A DNA stretch of 64,000 nt from assembly GCA_934085825.1 (NCBI GenBank), contig CAKOHR010000002.1, forward strand, positions 113,682 to 177,681, in the 5' to 3' direction. The DNA comes from an uncultured Bacilli bacterium. Its GTDB lineage: Bacteria; Bacillota_I; Bacilli_A; RF39; UBA660. Numbering within the stretch: the stretch's first letter is position 1; each line of letters starts with the position of its first letter. Positions 16,165 through 60,294 of this stretch are shown piece by piece. The notes below the pieces were generated by a model that worked only from the letters and a program-made list of their open reading frames with translations, was not told the DNA's origin and did no database searches. The translations under genes were made by a program, and so were the position numbers.

Positions 16165-16290
16165 TATCTTATAAAGAGTGATGGAGGGACTAGCCCTTTG
16201 AAATCACACCAACTTATTAAATTAGGTGGTAATGCTAGAACTATAAGATACTTTCCTATCATCCAAGGTTATTCTTGGATGCTTTTTTAT
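16165..16290 (+). ncRNA. SAM-I (S-box) riboswitch with an intrinsic terminator; orphan (no downstream plus-strand gene)
   Basis: CUUAUAAAGAG...GGAGGGACUAGCCCUUUGAA...GGUGGUAAUGCUAGAACUAUAAG matches the S-box core (cf. B. subtilis yitJ leader CUUAUCAAGAG..GGAGGGACUGGCCCGAUGAA..GGUGCCAAUUCC..AGAUGAG). P1 forms from CUUAUAA with UUAUAAG. The terminator is UCCAAG-GUUAUU-CUUGGA followed by a U-run. Confidence 0.7.
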
Positions 16291-16352: not shown

Positions 16353-16429
16353 TGGCGTCCTTGGCAGGAATCGAACCTGTGACCTAATGCGTCGGAGGCA
16401 TTCGCTCTATCCTACTGAGCTACAAGGAC
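16353..16429 (-). tRNA. tRNA-Arg (anticodon CCG), CCA encoded
   Basis: Manual cloverleaf: acceptor GUCCUUG/CAAGGAC, D-stem GCUC/GAGC, anticodon stem AAUGC/GCAUU with loop CUCCGAC, T-loop UUCGAUU, discriminator G, CCA. A hairpin with a U-run follows. Confidence 0.85.
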
Positions 16430-57800: not shown

Positions 57801-58205
57801 TTAAACTATTTTTTTTAAATCACCATTTAAAATAATTGGATTAAAGCCAATAATTTCATCTTTTAATAAACCATCTGGTATATCATTTATCATATATATT
57901 GTTTTTCCTAACCTAAAAGCATCGTACATTTCTAGAAATGTTGCACCCCCGATATAATTTTGAATGCCATTTTTAGCATAGTTTAAAACAAGCACAGCAT
58001 CAACTCCAGAAATAACTTCTTCACTATGTTTAATCATTCCAGCTTTCCACTTAGCGTGTTCATCTGTGCCACGATATTTACTTTCTGTTTCAGGACAATC
58101 ATAACAATTAGGTAATGATATTATATGTCCCACTTTTTCTAGTGCACTCTTAATTGGTGGTATTTTATCATAAAACGCTTTACTGCATATAATAAATATT
58201 TTCAT
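57801..58205 (-). CDS. Nucleoside 2-deoxyribosyltransferase-like (NDT-fold) protein
   Basis: 134 aa; GGATFLEMYDAFRLGKTIYMI resembles the NDT catalytic-Glu region. Own extended -10 promoter (TGtTATAAT) at ~58225-58240. Confidence 0.4.
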   Translation of the reverse strand: MKIFIICSKAFYDKIPPIKSALEKVGHIISLPNCYDCPETESKYRGTDEHAKWKAGMIKHSEEVISGVDAVLVLNYAKNGIQNYIGGATFLEMYDAFRLGKTIYMINDIPDGLLKDEIIGFNPIILNGDLKKIV

Positions 58206-58267
58206 ATATTTTGCTCCTTATAGTTTTATTATAACATAAAAATAGAAAATTTTTTATATTTTTAAAT

Positions 58268-58296
58268 TTGACTTTTAGCCACATTTATGCTATTAT
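58268..58296 (+). promoter_or_regulatory. Near-consensus sigma-A promoter TTGACT-17-(TGc)TATTAT for the candidate sRNA
   Basis: TTGACT at 58268-58273, 17-nt spacer, TG at 58288-58289, TATTAT at 58291-58296. Confidence 0.6.
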
Positions 58297-58302
58297 GTAT
58301 TT

Positions 58303-58420
58303 AGCAAAGAAAATTTGCATATAATAAAAAAATGGAACATCCGTTTTTACCGAGATTGGATGCTACCAATAATGTGGATGGCATCTAAATCAACCTCGTT
58401 GATTTAGATGCTTTTTGTTA
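58303..58420 (+). ncRNA. Candidate ~118-nt sRNA (putative type I antitoxin), convergent with and 3'-overlapping the 27-aa ORF
   Basis: Strong promoter upstream. Intrinsic terminator with a 13-14-bp perfect stem (GCATCTAAATCAAC / GTTGATTTAGATGC, 58381-58411) and a UUUUUGUU tail. No ORF. Confidence 0.5.
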
Positions 58421-58576
58421 GATTGCTAATACAAATACAATTATTAGCAAACATACTATGATGAAGAACAATATAAGAATAAATAAATCCTTTATGCTCA
58501 TTAACATCACCTCTCTTTCAGTTCCAAAACTTTAAAAGAGGTAGCATCCAATCAAACAGGATGTTCCATAAATTAA
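58336..58576. repeat. Imperfect ~34-bp inverted repeats (GGAACATCC...GGATGCTACC / GGTAGCATCC...GGATGTTCC) flanking the peptide ORF and terminator
   Basis: Left arm 58336-58370, right arm 58541-58576. The two outer 9-10-bp blocks are perfectly complementary; the middles diverge. Confidence 0.8.
58418..58501 (-). CDS. 27-aa hydrophobic peptide (MSIKDLFILILFFIIVCLLIIVFVLAI), candidate type I toxin
   Basis: Near-ideal Shine-Dalgarno sequence AGAAAGAGAGGUGAU 8 nt upstream of the AUG. 5'-UTR hairpin ACCUCUUUU/AAAGAGAGGU able to sequester the SD. Promoter TTGCTT-18-TAATAT at ~58575-58608. The 3' end overlaps the sRNA terminator. Confidence 0.45.
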   Translation of the reverse strand: MSIKDLFILILFFIIVCLLIIVFVLAI

Positions 58577-58810
58577 TTATATTACTAAATAGTTTCAAAA
58601 GCAAGCAATTTAAGCCACTTTATAAAATTTATAATAACCAAATTTAAAATATGTATATATAAGTATATGCATGTTTATTTTTAGCAACTTTTTAACCATT
58701 ATTTTTAATTAAGATTGTCCTATTATGTATTTAGCAAAGAAGATTTGCTTGTAACGAAAAAGGAACACATCATTTTGAAACCACTCAGTGTTAACCTATT
58801 TATTTTAAAT

Positions 58811-58840
58811 AAAAAAAGTGCCGAAGCACTATTTACTTTT
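58811..58840 (-). terminator. Terminator of pgsA (UUCG-loop hairpin followed by U7); bidirectional in form
   Basis: Minus strand reads AGUGC-UUCG-GCACU UUUUUUU, overlapping the pgsA stop codon. Confidence 0.6.
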
Positions 58841-59449
58841 CTTTGGAAATAATATGTCTTTAACACCATAGAAATATTGGGCACCAGATATAACTGAAAG
58901 TATTACTGCAGCTATAAGCAAAATATCTGCAACTGGGAAACCAATAAGTTCAAATGGCAAATTATAAAACATTGTAAGGGTAAGTCCACTCATCATACAA
59001 ATTGTTTTAAGTTTTCCCATAATTGATGCTGCCACAACTTTTCCATTTTGTCCTGAAATCATCTTACATGAGTCAACAACAATATCACGAGATATAATAA
59101 CAACTGGAATTACAATAGAAATAATTCTATCATAAGCAAGAATTATTAAAAGCCCATTTACAAGTAATTTATCTGCAATGGCATCCATAACTTTTCCAAA
59201 ATCAGTTACCATATTATTTTTACGAGCTAGATAACCATCTAAAAAATCTGATGTTGAAGCTATTAAAAATATTATACCTGCAATTATATATTTTAAATTA
59301 ACAGTTATTGTTGCTACTTGATAAACAGGAAATTCTACTCCTAAATTGTACCAAGGCATTAAAAGCATTATAAGTAATAATACTGATAAAACTATTCTAG
59401 TCAATGTTATTTTGTTTGGTAAATTCATATATACTTCCCTACTTTCCAT
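58829..59449 (-). CDS. pgsA: CDP-diacylglycerol--glycerol-3-phosphate 3-phosphatidyltransferase
   Basis: CDP-alcohol phosphatidyltransferase motif DFLDGYLAR...G...DAIADK; rodZ-pgsA synteny. Confidence 0.85.
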   Translation of the reverse strand: MESREVYMNLPNKITLTRIVLSVLLLIMLLMPWYNLGVEFPVYQVATITVNLKYIIAGIIFLIASTSDFLDGYLARKNNMVTDFGKVMDAIADKLLVNGLLIILAYDRIISIVIPVVIISRDIVVDSCKMISGQNGKVVAASIMGKLKTICMMSGLTLTMFYNLPFELIGFPVADILLIAAVILSVISGAQYFYGVKDILFPKKSK

Positions 59450-59944: not shown

Positions 59945-60294
59945 AAAATAATCTGAATAAGCCATGTTTTGTTCTTCATAAAGAAGAGGCAAATATTTAT
60001 CTTACATCTCTGCATCTAAAGTAAATTCAGTTTTTTACTTTAAACTCCCCTACCATAATTTGGGTTTCTCGCTTGCGGGGTTTACCACGTTCCACCTACA
60101 AAGTTTCCCTTGTAGCTCGTCTCTTTGGCACTTTTATATCTAATAAAACCATTTAAGGTCCCCTCGAAGCCGTTAACTTGCGTTACCTTAGGTTATTTTT
60201 TCCCTAAGCACAAACACTACAGACATCGCAGTCTGTGCGAGCATGGACTTTCCTCTACATAACTATCTTATGCAGCATTTGCCACTAGATTATT
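59945..60294 (-). ncRNA. rnpB: RNase P RNA, type B (Firmicutes-type)
   Basis: The minus strand contains GUAGAGGAAAGUCCAUGCUCGCAC..., GUGGAACGUGGUAAACCCCGCAAGCGAGAAACCCAAAUUAUGGUA and AACAAAACAUGGCUUAUUCAG. These closely match B. subtilis rnpB conserved regions. P1 forms from AAUAAUCU with AGAUUAUU. The 5' end abuts or overlaps the gpsB stop. Confidence 0.9.

What the first reader, a model, noticed from the sequence alone, without database searches (positions are those of the whole stretch)
58262..58610. Candidate type I toxin-antitoxin module: convergent terminated sRNA and a 27-aa hydrophobic peptide with a sequestered strong SD
The two flanking genes are both on the minus strand, yet the spacer carries an independent plus-strand transcription unit. 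It has a near-consensus extended -10 promoter (TTGACT-17-TGcTATTAT) and, ~118 nt later, a perfect 13-14-bp terminator hairpin with a U-tail. No ORF lies in between. Converging on it from the other strand is a 27-codon ORF encoding an almost purely hydrophobic single-helix peptide (MSIKDLFILILFFIIVCLLIIVFVLAI). The peptide has an unusually strong Shine-Dalgarno sequence (AGAAAGAGAGGUGAU, spacing 8) and its own promoter-like element (TTGCTT-18-TAATAT). Its 5' UTR can fold ACCUCUUUU against AAAGAGAGGU, occluding the SD. The last codons and stop of the ORF lie inside the shared terminator stem, so the two RNAs are complementary at their 3' ends. This is the fst/RNAII, txpA/RatA and bsrG/SR4 arrangement. 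Any one of these elements alone could arise by chance in AT-rich DNA, but the combination is hard to explain that way. The peptide does not obviously match a named toxin family.
Basis: partly seen in the sequence, partly recalled or inferred. Interest (0 to 1): 0.8.

Follow-up and report, generated by a model that had tools for sequence, protein, structure and literature searches.

The report
Candidate type I toxin-antitoxin module
Between two housekeeping genes of an uncultured human-gut Bacilli bacterium lies a conserved gene for a 27-residue membrane peptide, with its ribosome-binding site locked in a hairpin and a small antisense RNA gene converging on its 3' end. It looks like a previously unclassified but conventionally built type I toxin-antitoxin pair.

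Summary
A plus-strand unit runs from a near-consensus extended -10 promoter to a 14-15 bp terminator with a U-tail. It converges on a minus-strand 27-codon ORF whose strong SD sits inside a 10-bp hairpin. This is the only 18-50-aa ORF in the 64-kb window with a hydrophobic run of at least 18 residues; shuffles gave none.

The module lies at the same site in 38 loci from one narrow clade of gut Bacilli MAGs, and the ORF is intact in all of them. It evolves as a coding sequence (dN 0.03-0.05 against dS 0.13-0.21). One species carries a replaced allele with saturated dS between almost unchanged flanks. Most RNA substitutions fall in loops or give G·U pairs. The G·U pairs in the sRNA hairpin fit only the plus strand.

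Corrections: the stop codon lies outside the terminator stem, and that hairpin has no U-tract on the minus strand. A second hairpin followed by U7 probably ends the mRNA, giving about 97 nt of overlap. There are no par-type direct repeats. Instead, an inverted repeat gives both RNAs the same 5' hairpin.

The peptide and RNAs match no Pfam, NCBIfam or Rfam family. Toxicity and transcription are untested. Verdict: new member of a known kind, of moderate interest.

The parts
58268..58296 (+). sRNA promoter P1: TTGACT, 17-nt spacer, TGnTATTAT (extended -10)
   Evidence: scores it 10/12 with TG. Across 24 unique variants, changes near the hexamers are limited to the 'n' of TGn and one C>T in the -35 of a single locus. 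One search counts 3-4 variable columns over 58268-58302.
58303..58419 (+). Predicted ~115-nt antisense sRNA (putative antitoxin). It has a 5' hairpin (58304-58318), an invariant A-rich linker (58319-58332), a long hairpin SL2 (58333-58368) and a terminator.
   Evidence: MFE is -36.5 kcal/mol, z -5.3. The RNAalifold consensus over 9 variants has 32 pairs; two cells fail, one C·U in L015 and one gap from the L149 deletion. The 5' hairpin stems are invariant while the loops vary: GAAAA, GGAAA, and GAAGA in copy 3.
58380..58419 (+). Intrinsic terminator of the sRNA: 14 bp plus one G·U, loop CUC, tail UUUUUGUU
   Evidence: -20 kcal/mol, z -5.8. Terminator-like sites in the 1.3-kb region: 3 found against 0.2 expected.
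58576..58604 (-). Toxin mRNA promoter: TTGCTT, 17-nt spacer, TATAAT. The predicted TSS is about 58569.
   Evidence: Read directly from the sequence. The -10 is invariant. The -35 varies (TTGCTT, TTGCCT, TTGTTT, CTGTTT, TTTCTT).
58605..58632 (-). Invariant A/T-rich block just upstream of the toxin -35 (TATAAATTTTATAAAGTGGCTTAAATT). Possibly an UP element or a regulator site.
   Evidence: It is identical in all 24 unique variants, while the spacer beyond it is variable. Its function is inferred only.
58502..58569 (-). Toxin 5'UTR. It holds the 5' hairpin SL1 (CAUCC/GGAUG, 58545-58563) and the SD-sequestering hairpin (58508-58543). The SD core GAGGUGAU is at 58506-58513.
   Evidence: Among the first 5 variants there are 19 consensus pairs, none broken, and 2 one-sided changes to G·U. 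A later variant has U·G changed to U·U in the SD helix.
58418..58501 (-). 27-codon ORF plus stop: MSIKDLFILILFFIIVCLLIIVFVLAI, a single predicted TM helix (putative toxin)
   Evidence: The ORF is intact in 38 of 38 loci, with 8 peptide variants. dN is 0.03-0.05 against dS 0.13-0.21. Against the L013 allele there are 10 synonymous codon differences, 11 non-synonymous and 6 identical codons.
58326..58368 (-). Second minus-strand hairpin (the antisense of sRNA SL2) followed by U7. It is the likely intrinsic terminator of the toxin mRNA, giving a ~244-nt mRNA and ~97 nt of overlap with the sRNA.
   Evidence: -10.9 kcal/mol, 10 bp, then UUUUUUU. The U7-8 run is conserved. The hairpin is weaker (-6.2) in the L015 group. 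Its role as a terminator is inferred, not shown.
58319..58367 (.). Left arm of the inverted repeat. It pairs with 58540-58582 and gives both RNAs the same TATAAT-N6/7-AUGGAACAUCC-loop-GAUUGGAUGCUACC module.
   Evidence: I1: 29 nt, 79%; I7: 14 nt, 100%. One search finds the 14-mer only at these two places in the window.
58540..58582 (.). Right arm of the inverted repeat (toxin -10 and the first ~30 nt of the mRNA)
58689..58776 (+). Degenerate third copy of the sRNA promoter and 5' region, abutting the pgsA terminator. Probably a relic of a second module.
   Evidence: D1: 88 nt, 72%. (28 of 29 identical over CTATTATGTATTTAGCAAAGAARATTTGC). (nhmmer E = 1.4e-5). It is missing in strains L002-L004.

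Best explanation
This is a chromosomal type I toxin-antitoxin-like module.

**The mRNA.** The minus strand makes an mRNA from a moderate sigma-A-type promoter. The mRNA encodes a 27-aa single-helix membrane peptide. Its 68-nt 5'UTR folds into a small 5' hairpin and a 10-bp hairpin that buries a very strong SD (GAGGUGAU), so the mRNA is poorly translated on its own.

**The sRNA.** The plus strand makes a ~115-nt non-coding RNA from a near-consensus extended -10 promoter. It stops at a strong intrinsic terminator. It is perfectly complementary to the 3'UTR of the peptide mRNA. The overlap is at least 39 nt, and about 97 nt if the mRNA ends at the second hairpin plus U7.

**Proposed mechanism.** The more strongly expressed sRNA pairs with the 3' region of the mRNA. 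The duplex is then cleaved by a double-strand RNase or degraded from the 3' end, as in RatA/txpA and SR4/bsrG. The SD hairpin limits translation of any mRNA that escapes. If the sRNA falls, the peptide is made and inserts into the membrane.

**Shown here:** the sequence elements, their conservation, protein-level selection on the ORF, and plus-strand-specific structure of the sRNA.

**Inferred:** that both RNAs are transcribed, where their ends lie, that they form a duplex which is degraded, and that the peptide is toxic.
For: - **Anatomy.** Promoter, terminator, ORF, SD and SD hairpin are all present.
- **Chance is excluded for the ORF**.
- **Conserved at the same site** in 38 loci spanning at least 5 GTDB species-level genomes. 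The RNA elements are 93-100% identical, against 82-86% for the adjacent spacer.
- **Coding signature.** dN is well below dS. No frameshift or stop occurs in 38 loci, and all replacements are conservative.
- **L013 allele.** The ORF is 59% identical in DNA with saturated dS, yet it stays open, hydrophobic and in frame between flanks that are about 93-100% identical.
- **UTR and sRNA substitutions** are mostly in loops or are A>G changes giving G·U. Four G·U pairs in sRNA SL2 would be A·C mismatches on the other strand.
- **Promoters.** The antitoxin promoter is stronger and less variable than the toxin promoter.
- **Precedent.** The arrangement matches Gram-positive type I families in which the asRNA lies 3' of the mRNA and partly overlaps it (PMC8594479). 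It also matches the RatA and SR4 mechanisms (PMC8167048).
Against: - There are no expression data and no toxicity data.
- The peptide matches no toxin family: Pfam and NCBIfam gave nothing at E<=10. It also lacks the charged C-terminal tail typical of Gram-positive type I toxins.
- Only one copy is known, at one core-genome site, in one narrow clade. None was found in phages, plasmids or viral contigs.
- The sRNA has no significant complementarity to the translation initiation region, so it cannot block translation directly.
- The shared hairpin is not a terminator on the mRNA strand, so the 3' end of the mRNA is uncertain.
- Two polymorphisms mildly weaken predicted helices: U·G to U·U in the SD helix, and C-G to A·G in the terminator.
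- No fully compensatory double substitution was seen.
Confidence: 0.6

Rival explanations
1. This is a small membrane protein gene that is not toxic, for example an accessory subunit or regulator of a membrane complex. Its expression is tuned by a cis-antisense sRNA and an SD-sequestering leader. The architecture is the same, but the peptide has a physiological role rather than a toxic one.
For: - Purifying selection acts on the peptide.
- The module sits at a single, fixed, core-genome location next to pgsA and not on a mobile element.
- No multi-copy family was found.
- The peptide lacks the features of named toxin families.
Against: - Tight double repression (a buried strong SD plus a strong convergent antisense promoter) is the hallmark of toxic peptides (PMC8167048, PMC7472228).
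- The ORF was replaced like a cassette in L013, keeping only hydrophobicity and length. That pattern fits a generic membrane-damaging helix better than a specific protein partner.
- A decayed second copy lies nearby, which is typical of TA loci.
Confidence: 0.22
2. The plus-strand RNA is an independent trans-acting sRNA, or a relic, that merely abuts the small ORF. The overlap has no regulatory function.
For: - There is no complementarity outside the overlap.
- The sRNA has conserved single-stranded and hairpin elements (invariant A-rich linker, SL2) that could serve other targets or proteins.
- A partial paralogue exists away from any toxin ORF.
Against: - The sRNA gene and the ORF are always found together, in 38 of 38 loci.
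- They share an inverted-repeat module.
- The sRNA terminator hairpin is copied into the mRNA 3'UTR only if transcription runs through it. That is likely because the hairpin has no U-tract on that strand. In that case pairing cannot be avoided.
Confidence: 0.1
3. The small ORF is a leader peptide, and the hairpin an attenuator, for the downstream 134-aa gene and the tkt operon on the same strand.
For: - The strand is the same as the downstream genes.
- The stop codon lies 5 nt before a strong hairpin.
- That hairpin has no U-tract on this strand, so read-through towards the 134-aa gene is possible.
Against: - The 134-aa gene has its own extended -10 promoter (TGTTATAAT) about 35 nt upstream of its start codon, conserved in all variants.
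- A hairpin plus U7 lies between the ORF and that gene.
- A strong head-on promoter sits in between.
- Homologues of the 134-aa gene in other genera lack the module.
- The peptide composition shows no regulatory codon bias.
Confidence: 0.05
4. It is a chance co-occurrence of AT-rich promoter-like, hairpin and ORF patterns.
For: Promoter-like hexamers are no more frequent here than in shuffles: 9 found against 10.4 expected.
Against: - The ORF is unique in 64 kb and absent from shuffles.
- Terminator-like sites: 3 found against 0.2 expected.
- Fold z-scores range from -4 to -8.
- The block is conserved above the level of the neighbouring spacer, and the ORF is under coding selection.
Confidence: 0.01

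Closest known systems
txpA/RatA, bsrG/SR4 and bsrE/SR5 of Bacillus subtilis (and sprG/SprF of S. aureus)
   Same: - The toxin mRNA and the sRNA are convergent, and the sRNA lies 3' of the mRNA and overlaps it.
- Interaction is through the cis-overlap itself.
- The expected outcome is duplex-dependent mRNA decay.
- The antitoxin promoter is stronger than the toxin promoter (SR4).
- The SD is very strong (txpA) or partly sequestered (bsrG). Sources: PMC8167048, PMC8594479.
- If the mRNA ends at the hairpin plus U7, each RNA has its own terminator and they overlap by ~97 nt. That is of the same order as the roughly 75-nt (RatA) and 120-nt (SR4) overlaps I recall for those systems.
   Different: - The sRNA does not overlap the ORF, reaching at most the stop codon.
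- The peptide is much shorter (27 aa against 38-59 aa), has no charged C-terminal tail, and shows no detectable sequence similarity.
- An inverted repeat makes the sRNA carry a copy of the mRNA's 5' hairpin.
- The module is not on a prophage or skin-like element.
par (fst RNA I / RNA II) of Enterococcus faecalis pAD1 and par-like loci
   Same: - Convergent promoters.
- The RNAs meet at a terminator stem-loop.
- The asRNA does not overlap the ORF.
- An intramolecular 5' stem-loop sequesters the SD.
- The N-terminus has Lys-Asp before the hydrophobic helix (MSIKDL... against MKDL...). Source: PMC7472228.
   Different: - There are no DRa/DRb direct repeats, and no sRNA complementarity to the initiation region.
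- The terminator has a U-tract on one strand only.
- The peptide lacks the PxxxG motif, the conserved Trp and the charged C-terminus.
- No Pfam hit.
hok/Sok and aapA1/IsoA1 (5'-3' long-distance interaction in the toxin mRNA)
   Same: If the mRNA runs to the U7 tract, its first ~30 nt are predicted to pair with its last ~45 nt. The pairing probability is 0.76-0.91 in 12 variants and the gain is 11-27 kcal/mol, mostly about 25. This resembles the end-to-end clamps that keep the full-length hok and aapA1 mRNAs inert (PMC8167048).
   Different: - Those systems are Gram-negative, and their antitoxin overlaps the 5' region.
- Here the antisense RNA would cover the 3' arm of the clamp.
- The clamp itself is unproven.
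- One common variant introduces an A·C mismatch into it.
Ibs/Sib and ShoB toxins of E. coli (peptide composition only)
   Same: They are very short, almost purely hydrophobic peptides that end without a charged tail. This comparison rests on my own knowledge of those sequences.
   Different: - The gene arrangement differs: Sib fully overlaps ibs, and OhsC is divergent.
- The phylum is different.
- No sequence similarity was tested or found.

Membership tests
Type I toxin-antitoxin systems (class) | Small (<60 aa) hydrophobic, membrane-targeted peptide ORF that is really coding | tested here: met
   The ORF is 27 aa with a 22-residue hydrophobic run and is unique in the window. dN is well below dS, and the ORF is intact in 38 of 38 loci.
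Type I toxin-antitoxin systems (class) | An antisense RNA gene whose product is complementary to the toxin mRNA | tested here: met
   A convergent near-consensus promoter and a terminator are present. The cis-overlap is at least 39 nt, and about 97 nt if the mRNA ends at the U7 tract. The conserved structure is specific to the plus strand. This holds at the sequence level only; transcripts have not been observed.
Type I toxin-antitoxin systems (class) | The peptide is toxic when expressed, and the RNA neutralises it | not testable with these tools
   This needs inducible expression with and without the sRNA.
Type I toxin-antitoxin systems (class) | A toxin mRNA structure that restrains translation | tested here: met
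   A 10-bp anti-SD/SD hairpin, -13.6 kcal/mol, z -4.4. It is kept in all variants, with one U·U polymorphism.
Fst/RNAII (par) family | [quoted passage not shown] | tested here: not met
   None of the 8 peptide variants has Pro, Gly or Trp. The C-terminus is hydrophobic, or a single Lys in L013. Pfam gave no hit at E<=10.
Fst/RNAII (par) family | Direct repeats DRa/DRb that give sRNA complementarity to the translation initiation region | tested here: not met
   No direct repeats link the two units; an inverted repeat is present instead. The best inter-RNA helix outside the overlap is -11.1 kcal/mol, and 25 of 200 shuffles reached it. The duplex energy equals the shuffle mean.
Fst/RNAII (par) family | A bidirectional intrinsic terminator shared by both RNAs | tested here: not met
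   The U-tract is on the plus strand only. The minus strand reads CAUCCACAUUAUU after the stem.
Fst/RNAII (par) family | Convergent promoters and a 5' stem-loop that sequesters the SD | tested here: met
TxpA/RatA, BsrG/SR4 and BsrE/SR5 families | The asRNA lies 3' of the mRNA and overlaps it, including part of the ORF (PMC8594479) | tested here: not met
   The 3' position and overlap are present. However, the sRNA ends at about 58417-58420 and touches at most the stop codon (58418-58420).
TxpA/RatA, BsrG/SR4 and BsrE/SR5 families | Toxin sequence homology | tested here: not met
   No Pfam or NCBIfam family matched. phmmer found nothing in 1.84 billion protein representatives. Statistical power is low for a 27-30-aa peptide.
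Rfam antitoxin or sRNA families | A covariance-model match at the gathering score | tested here: not met
   The best hit was OrzO-P at 19 bits against a threshold of 60 (E = 3.8), and it falls in the degenerate copy region. Nothing matched in 58262-58610 apart from palindrome noise.
hok/aapA-type long-distance 5'-3' clamp | The 5' end of the mRNA pairs with its 3' end in the full-length transcript | tested here: inconclusive
   It is predicted thermodynamically in all 12 variants. However, it depends on an unverified 3' end. The one informative substitution fits the sRNA strand (G·U) and not the clamp (A·C).

The most novel reading that the evidence does not exclude
The inverted repeat may be functional rather than a duplication scar.

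**The clamp.** The toxin mRNA would read through the first hairpin and end at the second hairpin plus U7. Its first ~30 nt would then pair with its last ~45 nt, forming an end-to-end clamp around the whole ORF.

**The mimic.** The antitoxin sRNA is encoded opposite the 3' arm, so it is necessarily a sequence mimic of the mRNA's own 5' end. It would compete with that 5' end for the 3' arm.

**The outcome.** Binding of the antitoxin would open the clamp and create a ~97-bp RNase III substrate at the same time. This would be a Gram-positive, 3'-antisense counterpart of the hok and aapA1 long-distance-interaction logic.

**A portable frame.** It would sit in a conserved regulatory frame into which different hydrophobic ORF cassettes can be swapped, as the L013 allele suggests.
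Probability: 0.2. Interest if true: 0.65.

Novelty: new member of a known kind. Interest (0 to 1): 0.45.

Why it matters
If confirmed, it would add a type I TA family whose toxin is not assignable to any named family. It comes from an uncultured, low-GC (27%) Bacilli lineage that is common in human gut metagenomes. One pgsA allele from this clade is recorded on 252 contigs, yet gene callers never annotate the peptide.

It is also a clean natural example of three things:
- regulatory RNA flanks that are more conserved than the toxin ORF they control;
- cassette-like replacement of that ORF;
- an antitoxin that shares a hairpin module with its target's 5' end.

These features could guide searches for unannotated type I systems in metagenomes, and the design of portable RNA-controlled kill switches. 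It does not change how type I systems are understood.

Tried and rejected
- **Rfam, permissive and gathering thresholds.** No family matched. The OrzO-P hit (E = 3.8) is noise.
- **Pfam and NCBIfam on two peptide alleles.** Nothing.
- **The look-up of encoding contigs with the 30-aa form.** It has never been called as a gene.
- **phmmer against 1.84 billion protein representatives.** No hits; power is low.
- **Viral-contig scan for the shared hairpin pattern.** 37 hits, all in unrelated higher-GC coding DNA, at about the number expected by chance.
- **Viral-contig scan with the peptide alignment.** None.
- **blastn 'distant' against plasmids and phages.** None.
- **Metagenome scan with the SD-hairpin pattern.** Only 6 relevant loci, all from the same clade. 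It found no diverged relatives.
- **Syntenic loci of the 134-aa gene in 80 species.** The module is present only where that protein is 94-97% identical. It was not seen in the one such locus (L014) that has almost no upstream DNA.
- **nhmmer with the module profile against all held loci.** Nothing outside the clade.
- **pgsA homologue search to reach more distant relatives.** The top 120 hits were all at least 93% identical, so it gave only more strains. These were still useful for the ORF-integrity count.
- **par-like complementarity.** No direct repeats and no 5' complementarity between the sRNA and the initiation region. A 9-bp helix between the terminator loop and the start codon is not above chance.
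- **Leader-peptide/attenuator reading.** Rejected because the downstream gene has its own conserved extended -10 promoter, and an opposing promoter lies in between.
- **tRNA scan.** None.
Full report
**Context.** The finding lies in a 623-nt spacer between two minus-strand genes. One is a 134-aa gene of unknown function (57801-58205). The other is pgsA (58829-59449), which matches CDP-alcohol phosphatidyltransferase at E = 3.6e-32. Nearby genes are core housekeeping: tkt, a RodZ-like HTH gene, RNase P RNA class B at 59953-60291, a DivIVA-domain gene and recU. The window has 27% G+C. It matches contigs of uncultured human-gut 'Bacilli' MAGs, mostly from Hadza and other gut metagenomes; some are labelled Erysipelotrichaceae or Tenericutes.

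**Checking the observation: what holds.**
- The plus-strand promoter is TTGACT, a 17-nt spacer, then TGcTATTAT (58268-58296). It is the best plus-strand promoter-like site in the spacer between the two genes.
- The hairpin at 58380-58412 has 14 perfect pairs plus one G·U, followed by UUUUUGUU. It is a textbook intrinsic terminator on the plus strand (-20 kcal/mol, z -5.8).
- The 27-codon ORF runs from ATG 58501 to stop 58420-58418.
- Its SD contains GAGGUGAU, eight contiguous matches to the usual Firmicute anti-SD (from general knowledge). This 8-mer occurs only twice in the 64 kb.
- The SD is buried in a 10-bp hairpin, UACCUCUUUU/AAAGAGAGGUG (-13.6 kcal/mol, z -4.4).
- No other ATG ORF of 18-50 aa in the window, on either strand, has a hydrophobic run of at least 18 residues. 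Thirty shuffles gave none.

**Checking the observation: corrections.**
- The stop codon lies outside the stem, so the ORF does not enter it.
- On the minus strand the hairpin is followed by CAUCCACAUUAUU, so it is not a bidirectional terminator.
- The toxin promoter reads best as TTGCTT-17-TATAAT (58604-58576).

1. *An inverted repeat.* The arms are 58319-58367 and 58540-58582, and they include a perfect 14-mer. Because of it, both convergent RNAs start with the same module: TATAAT, 6-7 nt, AUGGAACAUCC, a loop, then GAUUGGAUGCUACC. In the mRNA this is the 5'-terminal hairpin. In the sRNA it is the central long hairpin, SL2.
2. *A second minus-strand hairpin.* On the minus strand, the complement of SL2 forms a 10-bp hairpin (-10.9 kcal/mol) followed by U7 (58326-58332). 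This is the first credible intrinsic terminator for the mRNA. It would give a ~244-nt mRNA that overlaps the sRNA by about 97 nt.
3. *A degenerate third copy.* A decayed copy of the sRNA promoter and 5' region lies at 58689-58776 and runs into the pgsA terminator. It is deleted in some strains, which suggests a decayed second module.
4. *A separate promoter for the downstream gene.* The 134-aa gene has its own conserved extended -10 promoter, TGTTATAAT.

**Conservation.** I collected 38 loci that carry the module, using three routes. These were exact-protein look-ups of the 134-aa protein and of pgsA alleles, a scan of species-representative genomes, and a metagenome pattern scan. All 38 have it at the same site. 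Where the 134-aa protein is 83% identical or less, it sits in other contexts and the module is absent.

Identity of each region to the window across species-level relatives:

| Region | Identity |
|---|---|
| Toxin 5'UTR | 93-100% |
| Terminator | 95-100% |
| sRNA promoter | 95-98% |
| sRNA body | 86-99% |
| Flanking coding genes | 92-98% |
| Spacer between pgsA and the toxin promoter | 82-86%, with 67-88 gap positions |

In the sRNA promoter, changes near the hexamers are limited to the 'n' of TGn and one -35 change in a single locus. One search counts 3-4 variable columns across the whole 35 nt. The toxin -35 is more variable. This fits an antitoxin promoter that is stronger and more constrained than the toxin promoter.

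**Evidence that the ORF is coding.**
- The ORF is intact in 38 of 38 loci, with 11 nucleotide alleles and 8 peptides.
- All replacements are conservative: S/N, I/T/A, D/N, I/M, V/I, A/V.
- Against the window allele, dN is 0.03-0.05 and dS is 0.13-0.21.
- One species (L013) has a sharply different ORF. It is 59% identical in DNA and 2 codons longer: MNAKDIFILIEFCIIIYLLIIITLLLIIK. Its flanks are 93-100% identical to the window.
- Of the 27 aligned codons in L013, 6 are identical, 10 differ synonymously and 11 differ non-synonymously. dN is 0.31 and dS is saturated.
- That divergence is far above the genomic background. I infer that the ORF was swapped in by recombination from a diverged paralogue or allele, while the regulatory frame was kept.

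**RNA structure evidence.**
- RNAalifold on 9 sRNA variants gives a 5' hairpin (stems invariant, loops variable), a long SL2 and the terminator.
- SL2 contains up to four G·U or U·G pairs. Its variable positions (AA, AG, GG opposite UU; A>G opposite U) all keep pairing on the plus strand. On the minus strand they would be A·C mismatches. This is modest but strand-specific evidence that the plus-strand RNA is the selected molecule.
- In the 5'UTR, the first five variants break none of 19 pairs. Their changes fall in loops, give G·U, or lie in the linker.
- Wider sampling added one U·G to U·U change in the SD helix and a common C-G to A·G change in the terminator stem.
- No double compensatory change was found. 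The clade is too shallow for a real covariation test.

**How the two RNAs could interact.** Outside the cis-overlap, their complementarity is at chance level. The duplex energy is -35.7 against a shuffle mean of -36.6. The best single helix is -11.1 kcal/mol, and 25 of 200 shuffles reached it. No direct repeats equivalent to DRa/DRb of par exist (PMC7472228). The only plausible contact is therefore the overlap. That points to a RatA/SR4-type mechanism of duplex formation at the mRNA 3' end followed by RNase cleavage (PMC8167048), not direct occlusion of the SD. The intramolecular SD hairpin would supply the translational brake.

**A more speculative layer.** If the mRNA ends at the U7 tract, thermodynamic folding predicts that its first ~30 nt pair with its last ~45 nt. 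This holds in all 12 variants tested, with pairing probability 0.76-0.91 and a gain of 11-27 kcal/mol (mostly about 25) over local folds. The sRNA would then mimic the mRNA's 5' end and compete for the 3' arm. Evidence against selection for this clamp is a common variant (the L015 group). It keeps G·U in the sRNA hairpin but puts an A·C mismatch into the clamp, and it weakens the minus-strand hairpin to -6.2 kcal/mol. I rate this reading at about 0.2.

**Comparison with known systems.**
- *Architecture.* It belongs with the Gram-positive type I systems in which the asRNA lies 3' of the mRNA (PMC8594479).
- *par/Fst.* It shares convergent promoters, a terminator hairpin, an SD-sequestering 5' stem-loop, no ORF overlap, and an N-terminal Lys-Asp. 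It fails the defining features: DRa/DRb, a truly bidirectional terminator, PxxxG, the conserved Trp and the charged tail (PMC7472228).
- *TxpA/RatA and BsrG/SR4.* It shares the overlap-only interaction and the strong or sequestered SD. It does not share the ORF overlap or any peptide homology.
- *Databases.* No Rfam, Pfam or NCBIfam family matches. Nothing similar occurs in the phage, plasmid or viral collections.

**Verdict.** This is a well-supported candidate type I toxin-antitoxin module with a conventional overall design, but it cannot be assigned to a named family. Confidence in the TA reading is about 0.6. The main rival, at about 0.22, is a non-toxic small membrane protein under the same antisense control. 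Novelty: new member of a known kind. Interest: moderate (0.45). The inverted-repeat and clamp idea and the ORF-cassette replacement are the parts most worth following up.

Noticed in passing
window 58689-58776 (+), up to the pgsA terminator at 58817-58830: A degenerate paralogue of the sRNA promoter and 5' region is present here. It is 28 of 29 identical over CTATTATGTATTTAGCAAAGAARATTTGC, keeps the TATTAT -10, and has lost the -35 and the SL2 sequence. If transcribed, it would run antisense into the pgsA terminator. It is present in the window, L001 and L005, leaves weaker traces in L143, L144 and L147, and is deleted in L002-L004.
   Followed up: partly
L013:2081-2179 (CAKOND010000014.1), equivalent to window 58418-58510: The toxin ORF is replaced by a strongly diverged allele (59% DNA identity, dS saturated, 2 codons longer), while the promoter, 5'UTR, terminator and sRNA gene stay almost unchanged. 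This looks like cassette exchange by recombination. The donor copy was not found.
   Followed up: partly
L143 (OGPS01006462.1) and L149 (OHSE01000400.1), equivalent to window 58369-58412: One metagenome contig (L143) replaces the AT-rich terminator hairpin with a different GGGG/CCCC hairpin and a U-rich tail. Another (L149) has an 18-nt deletion between CATCCA repeats that removes the 3' part of sRNA SL2. Both keep the ORF intact. They could be real variants or assembly artefacts.
   Followed up: partly
window 57801-58205 (-): The 134-aa protein downstream of the module matches no Pfam, NCBIfam or PDB sequence. Even so, it has homologues at 53-72% identity in many Patescibacteria (Saccharibacteria, Paceibacterota and others), and at 37-59% in DPANN and other archaeal MAGs. 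They sit in unrelated gene contexts. That is an unusually wide and patchy distribution for an uncharacterised small protein.
   Followed up: partly
window 58605-58632 (-) and 58274-58290 (+): A 27-28-nt A/T-rich block just upstream of the toxin -35 is invariant in all 24 unique variants. It contains AGCCAC-TTTAT, a motif that also sits in the spacer of the sRNA promoter (TTTAGCCACATTTAT). This may be a common regulator site or an UP element.
   Followed up: no
L129:775-818 and L138 (Ga0180215_1002855, Ga0182742_1002826): The SD-hairpin pattern scan also hit an unrelated locus of about 40% G+C. There, an anti-SD/SD hairpin precedes a 38-aa ORF, [38 protein letters not shown]: a Gly/Tyr-rich head followed by a TM helix. 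It is another small membrane peptide with a sequestered SD.
   Followed up: no
L002:3464-5872 and L004:2633-4534: In two strains the transketolase gene is called as two ORFs (409 aa plus 390 aa in L002; L004 runs off the contig end) instead of one of 666 aa. This could be a frameshift, a pseudogene or an assembly error.
   Followed up: no
window 16166-16249 (+), 16356-16429 (-), 59953-60291 (-): Rfam gathering-score hits: a SAM (S-box) riboswitch, a tRNA, and a class B RNase P RNA. The RNase P RNA lies between the RodZ-like gene and the DivIVA-domain gene.
   Followed up: no
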